From: a virus
Virus genome (UHGV): UHGV-0172637
Reading direction: 5' to 3' (one strand)
Length of the DNA: 43,019 nt
Each line of letters begins with the position of its first letter. Positions within the stretch are counted from its first letter, which is position 1. The translations under genes were made by a program, and so were the position numbers. This document shows positions 1 to 11,638 of this stretch, in pieces. The notes under the pieces are model-generated. The model was not told the origin of the DNA and searched no databases. It saw only the letters and a program-made list of their open reading frames with translations.

Positions 1-171
1 CATACTATTCTCCTGAGTTTTTATTAGTATCATTATTGTTTTCAGCGCATCACTCGTCTAGTTTCATCGCGCTGATGAGAGGGTAAATTTTACCCCAATT
101 TGTGCATGGGTAAGTAGTAAAACCTGTGCTAAAGGCCGGGGTAATAATAAGGAACGTGGAATCGCGGGCAT

Positions 172-200
172 AAAAAAACCAACCATGAAGGTTGGTTTTT
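172..200 (-). terminator. Rho-independent terminator just 3' of the tRNA-Pro fragment (likely the host tRNA terminator)
   Basis: Inverted repeat AACCAACC (178-185) / GGTTGGTT (191-198) with 5-nt loop, flanked by A-run on plus strand (T-run on minus strand). Confidence 0.5.
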
Positions 201-210
201 CTGGGATTTT

Positions 211-258
211 TGGTCGGCACGAGAGGATTTGAACCTCCGACCCCCGACACCCCATGAC
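211..258 (-). tRNA. Partial tRNA-Pro gene, 3' ~48 nt only (anticodon-arm to CCA end); prophage att core
   Basis: Minus-strand reads ...GTCATGGGGTGTCGGGGGTCGGAGGTTCAAATCCTCTCGTGCCGACCA, matching T-arm/acceptor 3' half of enterobacterial tRNA-Pro as I recall it; sequence 5' of this does not continue as a tRNA (no complementary acceptor-stem 5' strand). Confidence 0.7.
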
Positions 259-451
259 ACCGCTTATAAAACGCTGAGAGCCGCGCAATTGCTGGTATTA
301 GGTACTATTCGCATGTATAAACAAACAGTGCTTTTTTAGCAAAATCTGCTCTATATACATCAATGACTTAGGTGGTGGTTTCTCCCCATGTTTGAATAGT
401 TTCGAAAAGTTGTGTGACATAATGCCAGAACAAACTACTAGAGGCTGGATA

Positions 452-1303
452 ATGAAAAAAAGAACTAAAAAAGGCAGTAACATCCGTTTTCGAGAACACA
501 CTGAGGTCGAGAGGTCTTACATTAGTCTTTATAAGATATTCTGCCGCGCTTGTGAAATTTCTGCAGTCATATCACTGAATCAAAGCGGAATTAAGACCGA
601 CGGCAGGGGGATACGGGCTGCAAATATTTTCACTCGTCAAGTGTTGACTGCGCATAGTCTTAAGAAACTACTGCCAGTACTGCGAAACGGAGATAATCCC
701 GATGATACAGTTTGGGATGTAACCACTATCGCACTTGTGTCCAGAAGTGTGATGGAAAATTTTCAGGCGCTTTTTTATTACGGCACGGAAACGGTCTCGG
801 AAGCGGAGGCTGACTTTCGTTTTCGAATTTTCCAAAAAGACAGAAATGTTAAATGGCGTGATATCAGACTGAAGGCTGGTGAATCTGAAGAATCACTGGA
901 GGAGTTTTTCACTGGCATACCAAAGCAGCAGGAGGAGATAGTGAACCATGAATTCTATAGTTCACTGTCTAAAGAACAAAAGAATAGTCTCAAAAACAGG
1001 GCCGAAATGTATTATACCAAAGCTGAGTTTGAAGCTCGCTGCCCGCGGTTAGCTGATATTGCACTACATCACCAATTACTATCAAATCTAGCCCATCCAT
1101 TGCCACTGGCTATCCATAGGATTGATGAATTTAGCGGTCATGGTTCACCCAGTGAAGCAGACATCTGCTTAGTCATAATATCCCTGAAGGTTGCTACAGA
1201 CTGCCTAATTGCGTCAGTTGAGGGAATGGGCGAAAAATTTGCCGATAGTATCGGTATACTTTATCGGTCAATGATTGAAGAACTCTCCAATTACTCACTT
1301 TGA
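452..1303 (+). CDS. Hypothetical protein, att-proximal accessory gene (283 aa from the RBS-supported ATG)
   Basis: ORF 392-1303 in track; internal ATG at 452 preceded by AGAGG RBS; no motif I recognise; lies between att core and the convergent integrase gene. Confidence 0.5.
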   Translation: MKKRTKKGSNIRFREHTEVERSYISLYKIFCRACEISAVISLNQSGIKTDGRGIRAANIFTRQVLTAHSLKKLLPVLRNGDNPDDTVWDVTTIALVSRSVMENFQALFYYGTETVSEAEADFRFRIFQKDRNVKWRDIRLKAGESEESLEEFFTGIPKQQEEIVNHEFYSSLSKEQKNSLKNRAEMYYTKAEFEARCPRLADIALHHQLLSNLAHPLPLAIHRIDEFSGHGSPSEADICLVIISLKVATDCLIASVEGMGEKFADSIGILYRSMIEELSNYSL

Positions 1304-1396
1304 AATATATACTTTCCTCAACTTCCGACACAGAGCAACCCGTCCAATTTGGTTTGCTCTGCTTTATACTATAGCAATAAAGGGAGTAACTTATTA

Positions 1397-2575
1397 TTAG
1401 CTGGCTTTTATTTCTCCATGTGGAACGACAACCCAGTCGATATGGTTTTGCGTGTAAATTTTAGTTGATTTCGCATCGCTATGTGCCATTCGCCCTTGTG
1501 GATCGATACCCTGCTGATCGAAAAGATGCGCAGCCAGCGCTCTGATTTCGTGAAAGGTTGGTCTTTCGTCCATCGGTAGATTGTCGCATAAACCTAGCTT
1601 GTCACGCGTAGCTGAAAACGACCGACTCAAATAATCCGGCGCAACTTGAGTGGGATGTGAAACCTCTTTGCTGCGTTTAACCTGCCGTTCCGGGAGCCTG
1701 TGAACTATAAATGGACTGGCCACATTATCTCGGCTATCGTCAATTATTCGTTTCAACTCTTCCCCAATAGGTATTGCAACATGTGATGCCTCTTTTTTTT
1801 GCACCTTCTGCCTGTGGATATAGAGAGTCCCATATATGCCATTTTCTGGATGTTCTAACCAAACGCATCCGCATACTCCGTCTTTGGGTTCTTTGATGGA
1901 GTAGCGGATCCTTGATACCTCCAGTCGCGCGTGTGTTGTCTGCAATGCCAAATCCATCGCGCTCCGTAACCATGGTTCAGCTGCACGCCTGATAGCTTTA
2001 AAGTTATCAAGTGAGAGGCGCTGGCGTTTCTTCTCTTCTGTCCTACGCATTTTTTTACGGGTTGCCGGGTTATCGAACATTAGCGATTCATCGACCGCAT
2101 ACGAGAATAGTTTTTTAAGAAAGCTGACTTTCCTGTTTTGTACGTTTGCTGAAGCTTCGGCATGGTAGTGGTTTATATAGGCATTCACATGCTCCAGCTC
2201 AATATCGCAAGCTGGTGTGCTGATGAAGAATTCTTTCACTCTCAGAGCATCGTTGTTCCAATCGTCGAGTGTATTCTGTGAGGGGCGCTCATTCTCAATC
2301 GCCCGCTCCATAATATGATCTACGTGTTCAGCAAATGGTTTTGCTTCCCCCGTTACACCGCCAGATTCACGGACAAGTATTTCTACTGATGGTACATTTG
2401 CAGGCCTCATTCTGAGGTTGTATTCACGGGCTATAGCGATCGCTACAGCCCTGTCTTTACCGATATTCTTTTTTTTCCCAGTTATAAGCGTAAATTTATA
2501 AACGCCGCGATCTTTATCGAATATTAGATATTCGGGTAGATGGCGGTATTCTCTTTTTCTTGGCCTGGCTGCCAT
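1397..2575 (-). CDS. int: Tyrosine recombinase, lambda-type integrase
   Basis: 392 aa; C-terminal catalytic signature HEIRALAAHL...GRMAHSDAKSTKIY (His-x-x-Arg ... His ... Tyr), N-terminal arm-binding-like region; adjacent to att and xis. Confidence 0.92.
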   Translation of the reverse strand: MAARPRKREYRHLPEYLIFDKDRGVYKFTLITGKKKNIGKDRAVAIAIAREYNLRMRPANVPSVEILVRESGGVTGEAKPFAEHVDHIMERAIENERPSQNTLDDWNNDALRVKEFFISTPACDIELEHVNAYINHYHAEASANVQNRKVSFLKKLFSYAVDESLMFDNPATRKKMRRTEEKKRQRLSLDNFKAIRRAAEPWLRSAMDLALQTTHARLEVSRIRYSIKEPKDGVCGCVWLEHPENGIYGTLYIHRQKVQKKEASHVAIPIGEELKRIIDDSRDNVASPFIVHRLPERQVKRSKEVSHPTQVAPDYLSRSFSATRDKLGLCDNLPMDERPTFHEIRALAAHLFDQQGIDPQGRMAHSDAKSTKIYTQNHIDWVVVPHGEIKAS

Positions 2576-2577
2576 GG

Positions 2578-2787
2578 TTAACCCTCACTGATAAGCTGGC
2601 GAACCGTATGATTAACCATTGAGTCGACCCCCCATTTTTCAGACTCGCAGACCCAAACAGATCCGTCTACGATTTTGCCTGTGAGAAGTCCGTTTTCAAC
2701 CCAACGTTTAATGGTTCGATTATCCGGGATCGAGTCTTTGGTAAATTCGCGTTTACCCCACTGACTCGCCTTCATAAGTTTTGCCAT
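2578..2787 (-). CDS. xis: Excisionase (Xis-like DNA-binding protein)
   Basis: 69 aa, immediately upstream of and co-oriented with int; winged-helix-like RTIKRWVENGLL motif typical of excisionases. Confidence 0.75.
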   Translation of the reverse strand: MAKLMKASQWGKREFTKDSIPDNRTIKRWVENGLLTGKIVDGSVWVCESEKWGVDSMVNHTVRQLISEG

Positions 2788-2876
2788 GACAGACTCTCCA
2801 TACAGCCCGGCTGCACCCGGGCTTTAATATAAAACGATTGTGCTTTTAATATATAAAGACTTGCCTAATTGTTTAA

Positions 2877-4115
2877 TTACTTTTTCATCACCTTTTCAGC
2901 AACACCAGCAATTGCCTCAAGTCCATCAAACATTGCTGGTATATTATTTTCATTGTTTTGTATTGGACTAAAAATAAGAGCATCAAAAGAGTCTAAAACT
3001 TTCTCAATAGCAATGTTATTTTTTCTTCTATATTCAACATACCCATCAATGAAAGCACATAAGCTGAGCCTTAGATCAATCTGCATAAGTTGAGTTCTTA
3101 AAGCCTTCGCTTCTAAATATGAAAGTCTGAAAAAATAAATAATTGCCATCTCAATAGTAATAAATGGGAATAGAATGAAGATCGCTGAATAATCTTTAGG
3201 ATATAAATCAGGGAAAGAAAAATGGATTATTACAGCAATCACAGGAGCAATGAATACAGTCCCAAATAAATTTTTATAATTCATTTCAGTTGTAGAAAGC
3301 TCTTTCTCTTTTTTTTCTTTTATTATGTTAAAACCAGAGCTTAACCCAACAAAATTATACTCTGATTTTAAATTTCTCACACGCTCCTCTAGTGCCTTAA
3401 TTTCATCCCTTGATTCATCCACGTATTTTAAATTAGCATCTGCTTCTAGTTTTCCATCTACAATAGCTTTTTTAATGTCATTATAATTATCAGATATTAA
3501 TGATATGGATGCTTTAGTGTCTTTGTTAATTTTATCAATAGCCAAATCTAAGTTGCTAGAAATTTCATCGAGAAACTTCCGTTTGTTTTCGTCGAGGTCT
3601 GATATAAAGTTTCTAGCATCAGTTAGTTTGTTACTGTTTAGTAACCACTTCATAAGTGAAATAGGTAGTTTGTCTCGAATCCATGAAAATTGGTATTTAC
3701 CTTCATTATCCTTGAAAGTGTTTTCTAATAATGTCAATTTGCTGTCTGTGATAAAGTTAGGCGTGATAATGGAACGAGTGCCTGTCCAATAATAGTACTC
3801 GTACAATACTCTTAACAAGGTTGACAAAAAATCAATCTTGTCTTTCTTGTAATCGTCAACTTGAAATTCCATGTGCAACAATATATTGTCTTGATTAAAA
3901 CCTGTATTCTCATCTAAATGTTGTGGGTTGTTATTTATTATTGATATAAAAGTCGACCATGCTGAGTCCAATGTAGTATAGAATAAAGATATGCTATTAT
4001 CTTTCTTTTTGGCGGATTTCTTGGACATTTCTTCAAACCTAATAAGATCTCTACTAATTATAGTATTTGTTTCCTTTATTGAATTAAGTATTTTATTATC
4101 GCTATATAGTCCCAT
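2877..4115 (-). CDS. Hypothetical membrane-anchored protein (coiled-coil region, two C-terminal TM helices), AT-rich accessory gene
   Basis: 412 aa; Lys/Asn/Ile-rich, visibly AT-rich DNA; hydrophobic segments LFGTVFIAPVIAVIIHF and YSAIFILFPFITIEMAIIYFF; heptad-like segment DESRDEIKALEERVRNLKSE. Confidence 0.6.
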   Translation of the reverse strand: MGLYSDNKILNSIKETNTIISRDLIRFEEMSKKSAKKKDNSISLFYTTLDSAWSTFISIINNNPQHLDENTGFNQDNILLHMEFQVDDYKKDKIDFLSTLLRVLYEYYYWTGTRSIITPNFITDSKLTLLENTFKDNEGKYQFSWIRDKLPISLMKWLLNSNKLTDARNFISDLDENKRKFLDEISSNLDLAIDKINKDTKASISLISDNYNDIKKAIVDGKLEADANLKYVDESRDEIKALEERVRNLKSEYNFVGLSSGFNIIKEKKEKELSTTEMNYKNLFGTVFIAPVIAVIIHFSFPDLYPKDYSAIFILFPFITIEMAIIYFFRLSYLEAKALRTQLMQIDLRLSLCAFIDGYVEYRRKNNIAIEKVLDSFDALIFSPIQNNENNIPAMFDGLEAIAGVAEKVMKK

Positions 4116-9711: not shown

Positions 9712-11638
9712 GATTATCGTTGATAACTTTGCTGGTGGCGGTGGTGCATCAACGGGTATTGAACTGGCGATCGGACGCAGCGTGGATATTGCGATCAACC
9801 ACGACGAAAACGCCATTGCGATGCACAAGACGAACCACCCTGACACACTGCATTACTGTGAATCCGTATTTGACGTGGATCCGGTAGCCGCCACCGGCGG
9901 CAATCCTGTTGGCCTGGCATGGTTTAGCCCAGACTGCCGACACTTCTCAAAGGCCAAAGGCGCAAAGCCTGTGAAAAAAGAGATACGCGGTCTGGCCTGG
10001 ATCGTTCTGCGTTGGGCACTGGCGAAGCGACCGCGCGTGATGATGCTGGAGAACGTGGAAGAGTTTAAAACGTGGGGACCGCTGCTGGCCGATGAAATGC
10101 GTCCAGACCCTGCCCGCACTGGCGAAACATTCAATGCTTTTGTCGGCATGCTTTCCACTGGCATTCCTGCCGATCACCCGGCACTGGCGGAGGTCTGCGA
10201 ATTTCTTGCTATTGATCCTGGCAGCACGCAGGCCAAACAGCTGGTGGAAGGGCTTGGATATGATGTTGATTATCGCGAACTGCGCGCGTGTGATTACGGC
10301 GCGCCGACGATCCGCAAACGCTTCTTCATGGTTATGCGCTGCGATGGTTGCCCTATTCAGTGGCCTGTTGTAACCCATGGGGATCCCAAGTCACTGGAGG
10401 TGCAGAGCGGCAGGCTGATGCCATGGCGTACCGCTGCGGAATGTATCGACTGGAATGTTCCGGCTCTGTCCATCTTCGACCGCAAAAAACCGCTGGCGGA
10501 GAACACTCTGAAGCGGATCGCACGCGGCATACAGCGCTTTGTTATCGAAAGTGCGTCGCCGTTTATCGTGAAGTGCAACCACACGAGCTCAAAAAATGCG
10601 TATGACGCTTTTCGCGGACAGTCACTGAATGAGCCATTACAGACCATTACTAAAAAACTCGGCTACGCGTTAGCCGTTCCACACCTTACAAAATTCCGCA
10701 CTGGCGCAACCGGGCAGCCCGTTACCGAACCTGTTCCGACAGTAACCGCTGGCACGTCAAAACGCCCGGGCGGGAACGGGCATGCTCTCGGGATTGTTGA
10801 GGCTGCATTGACACCATTCCTGGCGGGTAATGGTGGTAGTGAATACCAGGCTAAACCGCGCCCGCTGAATAAACCTGCTCATACCATTCTGAAGCAATCC
10901 CGAGCCTGTCTTGTTGCGCCAGTGATAGCCCGCCAGTTTGGGGCCAGCGTCGGCCACCGTGCAGACGAACCGAGCGCAACCATCACCGCTGGTGGTGGAG
11001 GTAAATCTCAACTGGTAACGCCTACGCTGATTCAGATGGGTTATGGCGAACGACCTGGACAAGAACCGCGTGTGCTGCGACTGGATAACCCGCTGGGGAC
11101 CGTTACTGCAGGCGGAAATAAATTTGCGACGGTGAGCGCGTTCCTGGCGAAACACTACGGCGGTAACTATACGGGGCCGGGTGTCAGTATGGATGAACCC
11201 GCGCATTCAGTGACCACTGTCGACCATCATGCGGTAGTTGCCTCTCATCTGGTGAAACTGCGTGGAACATGCCGCGATGGGCAACGCCTTGATGTGCCAA
11301 TGCCAACAATCACTGCTGGTGGCCAACACGTGGGTGAGGTACGCACATTTCTCGAGACGTATTGCGGGGAAAGTGACGATGAATGGCTGGTAACGATCGA
11401 TGGGGTTAAATACCAGATCGTTGATATCGGAATGCGCATGTTGCAGCCGCATGAACTCTACAAAGCGCAGGGCTTCCCGGATGGTTACGTTATTGATCAG
11501 GACTACCGTGGAAATCGCTATGCAAAAGATAAGCAGGTAGCCCGCTGCGGTAATGCGGTACCACCACCATTCGCCAGGGCGCTGGTTGAGGCAAATCTTC
11601 CGGAACTGTGTGCAGTGCAACAGCAGGAGGTGGCATGA
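9704..11638 (+). CDS. DNA cytosine-5 methyltransferase, large form with repeated target-recognition-like segments
   Basis: Motif I FAGGGGAS, Cys motif SPDCRHFS, ENV motif MLENVEEF, RKRFFMV, C-terminal RCGNAV; five repeats of a P-x-P-T-[VI]-T-A-G-G-like segment in the variable region. Confidence 0.75.
   Translation: MREIIVDNFAGGGGASTGIELAIGRSVDIAINHDENAIAMHKTNHPDTLHYCESVFDVDPVAATGGNPVGLAWFSPDCRHFSKAKGAKPVKKEIRGLAWIVLRWALAKRPRVMMLENVEEFKTWGPLLADEMRPDPARTGETFNAFVGMLSTGIPADHPALAEVCEFLAIDPGSTQAKQLVEGLGYDVDYRELRACDYGAPTIRKRFFMVMRCDGCPIQWPVVTHGDPKSLEVQSGRLMPWRTAAECIDWNVPALSIFDRKKPLAENTLKRIARGIQRFVIESASPFIVKCNHTSSKNAYDAFRGQSLNEPLQTITKKLGYALAVPHLTKFRTGATGQPVTEPVPTVTAGTSKRPGGNGHALGIVEAALTPFLAGNGGSEYQAKPRPLNKPAHTILKQSRACLVAPVIARQFGASVGHRADEPSATITAGGGGKSQLVTPTLIQMGYGERPGQEPRVLRLDNPLGTVTAGGNKFATVSAFLAKHYGGNYTGPGVSMDEPAHSVTTVDHHAVVASHLVKLRGTCRDGQRLDVPMPTITAGGQHVGEVRTFLETYCGESDDEWLVTIDGVKYQIVDIGMRMLQPHELYKAQGFPDGYVIDQDYRGNRYAKDKQVARCGNAVPPPFARALVEANLPELCAVQQQEVA

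What the first reader, a model, noticed from the sequence alone, without database searches (positions are those of the whole stretch)
264..1303. Unassigned cargo gene between the att core and integrase
A 283-aa ORF (452-1303, RBS-supported) lies between the tRNA-derived att core and the convergent int gene. This att-int slot is a classic insertion point for lysogenic-conversion or defense genes, and the protein has no motif I recognise.
Basis: partly seen in the sequence, partly recalled or inferred. Interest (0 to 1): 0.55.

Follow-up and report, generated by a model that had tools for sequence, protein, structure and literature searches.

The report
Swappable prophage cargo gene, DUF5677-like
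A 283-residue gene wedged between a prophage's attachment site and its integrase is a real, selected, horizontally swapped accessory gene from the uncharacterised DUF5677 protein family; it is a plausible but untested single-gene anti-phage defence.

Summary
ORF 452-1303 (+) is real: it has a GAGG ribosome-binding site, RefSeq annotates the same frame in a relative, and dN/dS is 0.04-0.12. It lies between a 3' tRNA-Pro fragment (about 203-258) and a convergent tyrosine integrase (1397-2575).

It sits in a roughly 1-kb replaceable cassette (about 390-1396). Related E. coli prophages keep both flanks but carry five other, unrelated gene sets there, one of them a CBASS cyclase plus 2TM effector. 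The cassette is 96.7% identical to its only E. coli counterpart, while the adjacent int is 80.8% identical.

The protein has no direct Pfam, NCBIfam, PADLOC or PHROG hit. Profile searches tie it to DUF5677 (PF18928): 820 relatives, and 49 of 56 sampled members hit that model. It is a soluble all-alpha bundle with no significant structural match and no conserved HEPN Rx4-6H motif.

Close homologues sit alone in other accessory slots:
- the edge of a P4-like satellite;
- lambdoid nin regions;
- a mobilisable element;
- next to type I R-M, HerA and AriA-like ATPase genes.

The best reading is a stand-alone moron, probably a defence or exclusion factor. That function is inferred, not shown, and one Enterococcus DUF5677 gene tested negative in a preprint. 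Interest is moderate.

The parts
170..202 (-). Host flank: hairpin/terminator downstream of the tRNA-Pro gene (narP side)
   Evidence: Stem-loop AAAAAAACCAACC...GGTTGGTTTTT read. The region matches E. coli tRNA-Pro surroundings. Weak sub-threshold Rfam terminator-like hit.
203..258 (-). att core: 3' part of tRNA-Pro (anticodon arm to CCA end), the partial copy left at this prophage end
   Evidence: Matches annotated tRNA-Pro in E. coli genomes up to window position 258. No complete tRNA in the window. Single copy in the window.
259..390 (.). Conserved phage arm next to the core (presumed attP arm with Int arm-type sites; that function is inferred)
   Evidence: 87-94% identical in every slot variant, after which homology stops at about 387-394.
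391..451 (+). Cassette leader: candidate promoter (TTGAAT 392-397; extended -10 TGaCATAAT 414-422) and RBS GAGG 441-444
   Evidence: Read from the sequence and conserved in the E. coli EC20-4B-2 copy. The consensus scan did not call it because the spacer is 19 nt. Inferred, not shown.
452..1303 (+). Cargo gene: 283-aa soluble all-alpha protein, divergent DUF5677 (PF18928) superfamily member
1331..1361 (+). Hairpin between the convergent genes, followed by CUUUAUAC; candidate terminator closing the cassette
   Evidence: RNA fold of 1300-1400: -19.2 kcal/mol, z = -2.15 against shuffles. Not called by the strict terminator scan.
1397..2575 (-). Tyrosine integrase (lambda-type, arm-binding N-terminus); right border of the variable slot
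   Evidence: Pfam and PHROG hits. RefSeq annotation of relatives. Homology among slot variants resumes at 1397-1410.
2578..2787 (-). 69-aa xis-like gene directly upstream of int (the likely directionality factor; not part of the cargo)
   Evidence: Position and size, plus a weak HTH hit (DUF4817, E = 0.0078). Conserved next to int in all relatives.

Best explanation
The gene is a self-contained accessory cassette ('moron') of about 1 kb (roughly 390-1396). It comprises a probable own promoter, an RBS, one ORF and a terminator-like hairpin, and it occupies a recombinationally replaceable slot between the attP arm and the 3' end of int in a lambdoid prophage integrated in tRNA-Pro (proL). Its product is a cytoplasmic 32-kDa all-alpha protein of the DUF5677 superfamily that works without a dedicated partner gene.

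The most likely role is a prophage-encoded single-protein anti-phage or superinfection-exclusion factor, expressed in the lysogen. In that model it stays inert until a component of an infecting phage engages it. It then acts through the family's conserved polar residues (D89, R98, E119, R123, S211-x3-H215-x2-P218), possibly on a nucleic acid or nucleotide.

Shown: the gene is real and under purifying selection. The slot is variable and holds CBASS in one relative. The cassette has been exchanged between diverged prophages. The protein belongs to DUF5677. It is a stand-alone cargo gene of several kinds of mobile element.

Inferred: expression in the lysogen, the defence function, any trigger-sensing, and any catalytic activity.
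For: Cassette and slot:
- The flanks are conserved, while the stretch between about 390 and 1397 is replaced by five other gene sets in related E. coli prophages.
- One of those sets is a CBASS oligonucleotide cyclase plus 2TM effector (PADLOC E = 7e-144 and 1e-84).
- Identity to E. coli EC20-4B-2 is 96.7% in the ORF, against 80.8% in int and 75.7% in xis.
- GC is 42-43%, against about 50% further into the prophage.

Real gene: dN/dS is 0.04-0.12.

Family:
- 25 close homologues and 820 representatives at E <= 1e-3.
- P0024 (41% identical to the query) passes the PF18928 gathering score.
- 49 of 56 sampled members hit PF18928.

Stand-alone mobile cargo. Homologues at 63-76% identity lie:
- at the edge of a P4-like satellite;
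- between RusA and the Rha/ANT antirepressor of a lambdoid prophage, which is the slot where the solo Abi protein HepS sits in Gifsy-1 (PMC13043305);
- in another prophage's replication-to-DinI region.

Homologues at about 40% identity lie:
- next to type I R-M plus AAA_13;
- next to a HerA gene;
- 23 bp downstream of an AriA/AbiLi/GajA-like ATPase;
- in an integrative mobilisable element with a PemK toxin.

No neighbour is shared between these contexts.

Independent literature: DUF5677 is strongly enriched (P = 2e-92, n = 25) next to serine recombinases that mark defence islands in Bacillota (bioRxiv 10.1101/2025.10.07.681051).
Against: - There is no direct evidence of any phenotype.
- No PADLOC model matches the protein or its family.
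- The one DUF5677 gene tested experimentally (Enterococcus, six phages) was not among the five ORFs that gave protection.
- Several distant homologues sit between ordinary housekeeping genes.
- Several conserved charged residues are spaced i/i+4 on helices (R98/E102, E119/R123), so they could be structural salt bridges rather than catalytic residues.
- The promoter and terminator are consensus-level guesses only.
Confidence: 0.5

Rival explanations
1. It is a phage-benefit gene that acts during lytic growth or on entry. Examples would be a counter-defence protein, or an inhibitor or modifier of a host or competitor function, rather than a host-protecting defence.
For: In two lambdoid prophages the homologue lies in the nin-type region, on the same strand as the early-right genes, so it could be read through from pR. 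The protein is an all-alpha bundle with no recognisable catalytic motif, which would suit a binding or inhibitor protein. Known defence models do not match it.
Against: In the window it points against int and xis, has its own leader, and lies outside any lytic operon. Homologues also occur in non-phage settings: chromosomal islets, beside R-M, and in a mobilisable element. No match was found in 50,697 sequenced phage genomes, whereas counter-defence genes are usually common in virulent and temperate phage genomes.
Confidence: 0.15
2. It is a lysogenic-conversion or host-physiology gene unrelated to phage conflict, for example a stress, regulatory or metabolic accessory protein.
For: Some distant homologues are embedded among housekeeping or metabolic genes. 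A machine-learning study lists DUF5677 among accessory Pfam markers in Salmonella isolates (PMC12440251). Function is unknown for the whole family.
Against: The protein has no signal peptide or membrane segment. The highest hydropathy window is the buried core helix, and GRAVY is -0.33, so a surface-conversion role is unlikely. The distribution is patchy and tied to mobile elements across phyla. Slot-mates include CBASS. The family is enriched in recombinase-marked defence islands.
Confidence: 0.15
3. It is a toxin or addiction module that stabilises the mobile element, either a solo toxin or one with an unrecognised small antitoxin or RNA.
For: Neighbourhoods often contain TA genes: three PIN genes, PemK and MazE. 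Its position at the edge of mobile elements fits a stabilisation role.
Against: No conserved adjacent ORF exists in any pair of contexts. In the window the gene is flanked directly by the att arm and int, with no room for a partner ORF. Homology between contexts begins 4 nt before the ATG and ends inside the ORF, so no flanking RNA travels with it.
Confidence: 0.07
4. It is an accessory component of the integration/excision machinery, such as a directionality or host-factor-like protein.
For: Only its position next to att and int.
Against: Prophages with the same att arm and int family lack it and carry unrelated genes in its place. Homologues occur far from any integrase. A separate xis-like gene is present at 2578-2787. 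At 283 aa, near-neutral pI 6.7 and all-alpha, it is unlike known RDFs.
Confidence: 0.02

Closest known systems
Pfam DUF5677 (PF18928 / IPR043733), a family of unknown function
   Same: Profile searches link the protein to this family. A 41%-identical homologue passes the gathering score and 49 of 56 sampled relatives hit the model. Shared conserved positions are D89, R98, R123 and S211-x3-H215-x2-P218. Size (about 270-290 aa) and all-alpha architecture are the same.
   Different: The window protein and its enterobacterial clade (63-98% identical to each other) do not hit PF18928 themselves, even at E <= 1. They carry a Lys/Arg-rich N-terminal tail and a clade-specific GI-x-TDGRG loop. No member of the family has a demonstrated function.
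HepS, the solo HEPN abortive-infection protein of the Salmonella prophage Gifsy-1 (PMC13043305)
   Same: It is a single prophage-encoded gene with no partner and no inhibitor gene, located in an accessory slot. [quoted passage not shown] It offers a working model for how a stand-alone prophage protein can both sense infection and act on it.
Defence hotspots of prophages and satellites (variable cargo slots between conserved flanks, as described for P2/P4-like elements; from my own knowledge of Rousset et al. 2022)
   Same: Conserved flanks (the att arm and the int 3' end) bracket mutually exclusive cargo: six occupants were seen, one of them CBASS. A homologue also sits at the edge of a P4-like satellite.
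   Different: This slot lies between attP and int of a lambdoid, proL-integrating prophage rather than at the P2 or P4 loci. Only one of the six occupants is a recognised defence system; the other five, including this gene, are uncharacterised.
HEPN-domain Abi proteins (AbiV, AbiD/F, RnlA and others)

Membership tests
DUF5677 (Pfam PF18928) | The protein itself matches the PF18928 HMM at or above the gathering score (27.1 bits) | tested here: not met
   There is no PF18928 hit for the window protein at E <= 1. The close homologues P0007 and P0021 also have none.
DUF5677 (Pfam PF18928) | Transitive homology: significant relatives of the protein are bona fide PF18928 members | tested here: met
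   P0024 (E = 1.5e-53 to the query, 41% identity) scores 28.3 bits against the 27.1 cut-off. A profile of the clade finds 820 representatives. Hits such as P0113 and P0051 score 46-47 bits. 49 of 56 sampled members match PF18928, best E = 6.9e-14.
DUF5677 (Pfam PF18928) | Shares the family's conserved residue pattern | tested here: met
   In the 56-sequence alignment D89, R98, R123 and S211 are invariant, and Y23, S41, P75, E119, H215 and P218 are at least 90% conserved. All are present in the window protein.
HEPN superfamily | Conserved Rx4-6H catalytic motif | tested here: not met
   The only conserved His (H215) lies in S211-x3-H215. The R-x5/6-H strings in the window protein (R62..H68, R199..H206) are not conserved across the family.
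HEPN superfamily | HEPN four-helix up-down bundle fold, recovered specifically by structure comparison | tested here: inconclusive
Phage moron / replaceable cargo cassette in a prophage hotspot | Conserved flanks with alternative, unrelated occupants in related elements; dispensable for the phage | tested here: met
   Flanks 170-390 and 1397 onward are conserved. Six different occupants were found among related prophages.
Phage moron / replaceable cargo cassette in a prophage hotspot | Own promoter and terminator, allowing expression from the repressed prophage | tested here: inconclusive
   There is an extended -10 TGaCATAAT at 414-422 and a hairpin at 1331-1361 (z = -2.15). Neither was called by the strict consensus scans, and there are no expression data.
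Phage moron / replaceable cargo cassette in a prophage hotspot | Evolutionary history and composition differ from the neighbouring phage genes | tested here: met
   Identity is 96.7% for the cassette against 80.8% (int) and 75.7% (xis) to the same E. coli prophage. GC is 42-43% against about 50% in the prophage body.
Known or candidate anti-phage defence systems (PADLOC-DB v2.0.0) | Match to a defence-protein HMM | tested here: not met
   There are no hits for the protein. Only six sporadic single-member hits occur among the 56 family members.
Anti-phage defence gene (functional class) | Reduces plaquing or infection when expressed | not testable with these tools
   This needs a phage-challenge assay. 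The only published test of a DUF5677 gene (Enterococcus) was not among the positives.
Recombination directionality factor (Xis/Vis/AlpA type) | Small DNA-binding protein conserved with its integrase | tested here: not met
   The protein is 283 aa and all-alpha. It is absent from most prophages with this int and present away from integrases.
Type II toxin-antitoxin module | Conserved adjacent partner gene | tested here: not met
   No neighbour is shared among the contexts. There is no room for a partner ORF in the window cassette.

The most novel reading that the evidence does not exclude
The enterobacterial clade of DUF5677 proteins is a previously unrecognised single-protein abortive-infection or exclusion system. 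In this reading it is a solo sensor-effector with a non-HEPN all-alpha catalytic core built around the invariant S-x3-H-x2-P, D89, R98 and R123 positions, and it moves as a 1-kb cassette between prophage att-int slots, nin regions and P4-like satellites. That would assign a first function to a DUF family with at least 820 representative clusters at 50% identity across many bacterial phyla.
Probability: 0.3. Interest if true: 0.7.

Novelty: new member of a known kind. Interest (0 to 1): 0.42.

Why it matters
If the gene protects its lysogen, it would give the first function to DUF5677, a family of at least 820 representative clusters (50% identity) spread across Proteobacteria, Bacteroidota, Acidobacteriota and others. 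It would also add a compact single-gene system to the defence repertoire carried by prophages and satellites. In addition, the att-int slot of this proL-integrating prophage lineage is a small, well-bounded hotspot. Six alternative cargoes were seen and five of them are uncharacterised, so the slot could be mined for further candidates. If the gene has no phage-related phenotype, the finding is simply one more well-delimited moron of unknown function.

Tried and rejected
**Direct and profile searches**
- Direct family searches of the protein (Pfam, NCBIfam, PADLOC, PHROGs) returned nothing usable.
- Sequence and profile searches of PDB returned nothing.
- A second profile search of the word-indexed protein database added few new, unnamed hits.
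- The search for related loci with the wide alignment failed because no stretch was conserved enough. The narrower alignment was used instead.

**Structure comparison**
- Foldseek against PDB and BFVD gave nothing significant.
- The AFDB library was unavailable.
- Model coordinates are not exposed, so I could not test whether the conserved residues cluster in space.

**Hypotheses considered and rejected**
- HEPN: rejected as a membership claim because the Arg of Rx4-6H is an invariant Ser.
- A conserved partner gene: the 222-aa, 224-aa, 211-aa and 210-aa downstream neighbours in different contexts are unrelated to each other, and no family recurs among 77 neighbours of 11 distant loci.
- RDF or integration accessory role: rejected by synteny.
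- Membrane protein: rejected. The only hydrophobic window (238-256) is the high-confidence buried helix of the bundle and contains Lys and Asp.

**RNA checks**
- The Rfam scan of 120-460 found only sub-threshold terminator-like hits. The tRNA fragment was confirmed by similarity to annotated tRNA-Pro genes instead.

Full report
**1. The observation**

- The window begins in host DNA, with the start of a leftward gene at position 1. In the metagenome scaffold that carries an identical copy, the ccm operon and narP lie upstream.
- Positions 170-258 match the tRNA-Pro gene and its terminator in essentially all E. coli genomes.
- ARAGORN finds no complete tRNA anywhere in the 43-kb window, and the core occurs only once.
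- So 203-258 is the 3' tRNA fragment left at one prophage end, and the intact tRNA must lie beyond the other end.
- ORF 452-1303 (+) encodes 283 aa. A GAGG sits 7 nt upstream of the ATG.
- All homologues start at this Met, and RefSeq annotates the same CDS in E. coli EC20-4B-2.
- Nei-Gojobori estimates against homologues give dN/dS of 0.04 (24 synonymous and 4 non-synonymous differences to the E. coli copy) and 0.10-0.12 to the Klebsiella, Citrobacter and Atlantibacter copies. It is therefore a selected protein-coding gene.
- The convergent gene 1397-2575 (-) is a lambda-type tyrosine integrase, followed by a 69-aa xis-like gene at 2578-2787.

**2. The slot is a replaceable cassette**

Megablast of window 1-3000 against 5426 complete E. 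coli genomes found related prophages at the yejO/proL site. Pairwise blastn shows that homology to every one of them runs from about 170 to about 387-394. It then stops and resumes at 1397-1410, the int stop codon. Between these borders the relatives carry:

| Relative | Occupant of the slot |
|---|---|
| H1 | The same 283-aa gene |
| H2-6 | A 289-aa protein, unrelated to ours |
| H7-13 | A 239-aa protein on the other strand |
| H12 | Two genes, 256 and 118 aa |
| H14 | A 583-aa protein |
| H18-20 | SMODS cyclase plus SLATT/2TM effector, recognised by PADLOC as CBASS (E = 7e-144 and 1e-84) |

- The cassette is 96.7% identical to its E. coli counterpart, while int is 80.8% and xis 75.7% identical in the same alignment. 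The cassette was therefore exchanged recently between diverged prophages.
- GC is 42-43% in the cassette, against about 50% deeper in the prophage.
- The cassette has a candidate extended -10 promoter (TGaCATAAT, 414-422) and a hairpin at 1331-1361 (z = -2.15). Both are consensus-level evidence, and the strict scans did not call them.
- The gene is rare. It occurs in 1 of 5426 complete E. coli genomes, 0 of 50,697 phage records, one Pseudomonas megaplasmid and seven IMG/VR contigs. Five of those seven have it in this same att-int slot.

**3. What the protein is**

- Direct scans of Pfam, NCBIfam, PADLOC, PHROGs and PDB sequences give nothing.
- A homology search finds 23 enterobacterial homologues at 63-98% identity, plus two at about 40% that carry PF18928 (DUF5677).
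- A profile of these sequences, searched against 1.84 billion representative proteins, returns 820 hits at E <= 1e-3 and 367 at E <= 1e-10. Many pass the Pfam gathering score, and 49 of 56 sampled members match PF18928.
- The protein is thus a divergent DUF5677 member whose own clade falls below the Pfam model's sensitivity.
- Across the 56-sequence alignment D89, R98, R123 and S211 are invariant. Y23, S41, P75, E119, H215 and P218 are at least 90% conserved, which gives the motif L-S-x3-H-x2-P.
- Occasional fusions add an N-terminal P-loop region, a DUF1353 domain or a C-terminal SEC-C motif.
- AlphaFold2 gives an all-alpha bundle (mean pLDDT 79.5, pTM 0.73).
- There is no signal peptide or membrane segment, and GRAVY is -0.33.

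**4. Fold comparison**

- Foldseek against PDB and BFVD finds nothing at E <= 1e-3. The AFDB library was not available.
- The family's only conserved His follows an invariant Ser, not Arg, so the defining HEPN Rx4-6H motif is not met.
- I therefore do not file the protein under HEPN. A distant relationship cannot be excluded, but it is unsupported.

**5. Genomic company**

Close homologues occupy different accessory positions in different mobile elements:
- Klebsiella P0007 sits at the att-proximal edge of a P4-like satellite, next to the primase, Ash and AlpA genes.
- P0021 sits between RusA and the Rha/ANT antirepressor of a lambdoid prophage.
- P0013 sits between the replication genes and DinI/RusA of another prophage.
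- P0006 and P0015 sit in small chromosomal islets.

Homologues at about 40% identity are scattered over Bacteroidota, Deltaproteobacteria, Acidobacteriota, Pseudomonas and a gamma-proteobacterial symbiont. They lie:
- beside type I R-M plus an AAA_13 ATPase;
- next to a defence-type HerA;
- 23 bp downstream of an AriA/AbiLi/GajA-like ABC ATPase;
- next to transposases;
- near PIN and MazE genes;
- in an integrative mobilisable element with Mob_Pre, PriCT and PemK.

Others lie among housekeeping genes. No neighbour is shared between contexts, and between the window and Klebsiella the homology is confined to the ORF (448-1275). The gene therefore travels and works alone.

**6. Literature**

- Only two works in the library mention DUF5677.
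- A 2025 preprint finds it strongly enriched (P = 2e-92, 25 instances) in contigs marked by defence-associated serine recombinases in Bacillota. It tested one Enterococcus member against six phages, and that member was not among the five ORFs that protected.
- A Salmonella machine-learning paper lists it only as an accessory marker.
- The closest functional analogue is HepS of Gifsy-1 (PMC13043305). [quoted passage not shown]

**7. Interpretation**

- Firmly supported (about 0.9): this is a stand-alone, horizontally exchanged prophage cargo cassette that encodes a divergent DUF5677 protein. It is neither part of the integration machinery nor an RDF.
- Most likely function (about 0.5): a single-protein anti-phage or exclusion factor expressed from the lysogen. 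This rests on the hotspot context (CBASS as a slot-mate), recurrent placement in accessory slots of prophages and satellites, neighbourhoods rich in R-M, ATPase and TA genes, and the published enrichment.
- The mechanism is speculative (0.2 or less): action through the conserved D/R/E/R/S-H residues on a nucleic acid or nucleotide, after sensing a phage component.
- Rivals are a lytic-phase or counter-defence function (0.15), a non-conflict conversion function (0.15), an addiction toxin (0.07) and an integration accessory (0.02).

**8. Verdict**

This is a new, divergent member of a known but uncharacterised family, sitting in a known kind of hotspot. Interest is moderate (0.42): it is a clean, cheap candidate for a phage-challenge experiment, but nothing here is mechanistically surprising yet.

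Noticed in passing
window 2877-4115 (-): A second cargo-like gene of 412 aa has very low GC (about 30%, against about 50% for the prophage). It lies between the xis-like gene and a DUF2303 gene. It matches phrog_9373 (unknown function, E = 1.7e-101) but no Pfam or PADLOC model. The N-terminal two-thirds look coiled-coil-like and the C-terminus has two hydrophobic segments, which suggests a membrane-anchored exclusion or Abi-type protein. E. coli relatives carry different small genes plus yfdR here, so this position is variable too.
   Followed up: partly
window 259-390: A 130-bp stretch next to the tRNA core is conserved (87-94%) in all slot variants, whatever the cargo. It is presumably the attP arm with Int arm-type sites. 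TATAAAC-like repeats are visible by eye but were not analysed.
   Followed up: partly
window 1397-1800 compared with 1800-2834: Identity to the E. coli EC20-4B-2 prophage is about 90% across the 3' third of int and falls to 67-81% further upstream (100-nt windows). This places a recombination breakpoint inside int, so the cargo swap carried the int C-terminus with it.
   Followed up: partly
L005:6979-7647 (-) (Klebsiella P4-like satellite, next to homologue P0007): The 222-aa neighbour has no Pfam or PADLOC hit but contains ...YEARNAIHIHAE..., an R-N-x-x-H string of the HEPN Rx4-6H type. It may be a separate solo HEPN defence gene in the same satellite slot.
   Followed up: no
L027:8245-9894 (+) and 9917-10789 (+) (Flavipsychrobacter MAG): An AriA/AbiLi/GajA-like ABC ATPase (AAA_15/AAA_21; PADLOC AriA E = 2.8e-26) lies 23 bp upstream of a DUF5677 homologue on the same strand. 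Together with a P-loop-DUF5677 fusion (P0059), this hints that some branches of the family serve as the effector partner of an NTPase.
   Followed up: partly
window 1-170 and L013:4000-7990: The host is not E. coli. The ccmF-ccmH-narP flank is only about 79% identical to E. coli, and narP abuts the tRNA-Pro site with no yejO autotransporter gene, which separates the two in E. coli. The prophage lineage therefore spans genera, while the cargo stays 96.7% identical.
   Followed up: partly
L030:70-1305 and 1504-1691 (E. coli 50EVA): A second integrase gene lies immediately outside the conserved att arm of the related prophage. This suggests tandem elements at the same tRNA-Pro site.
   Followed up: no
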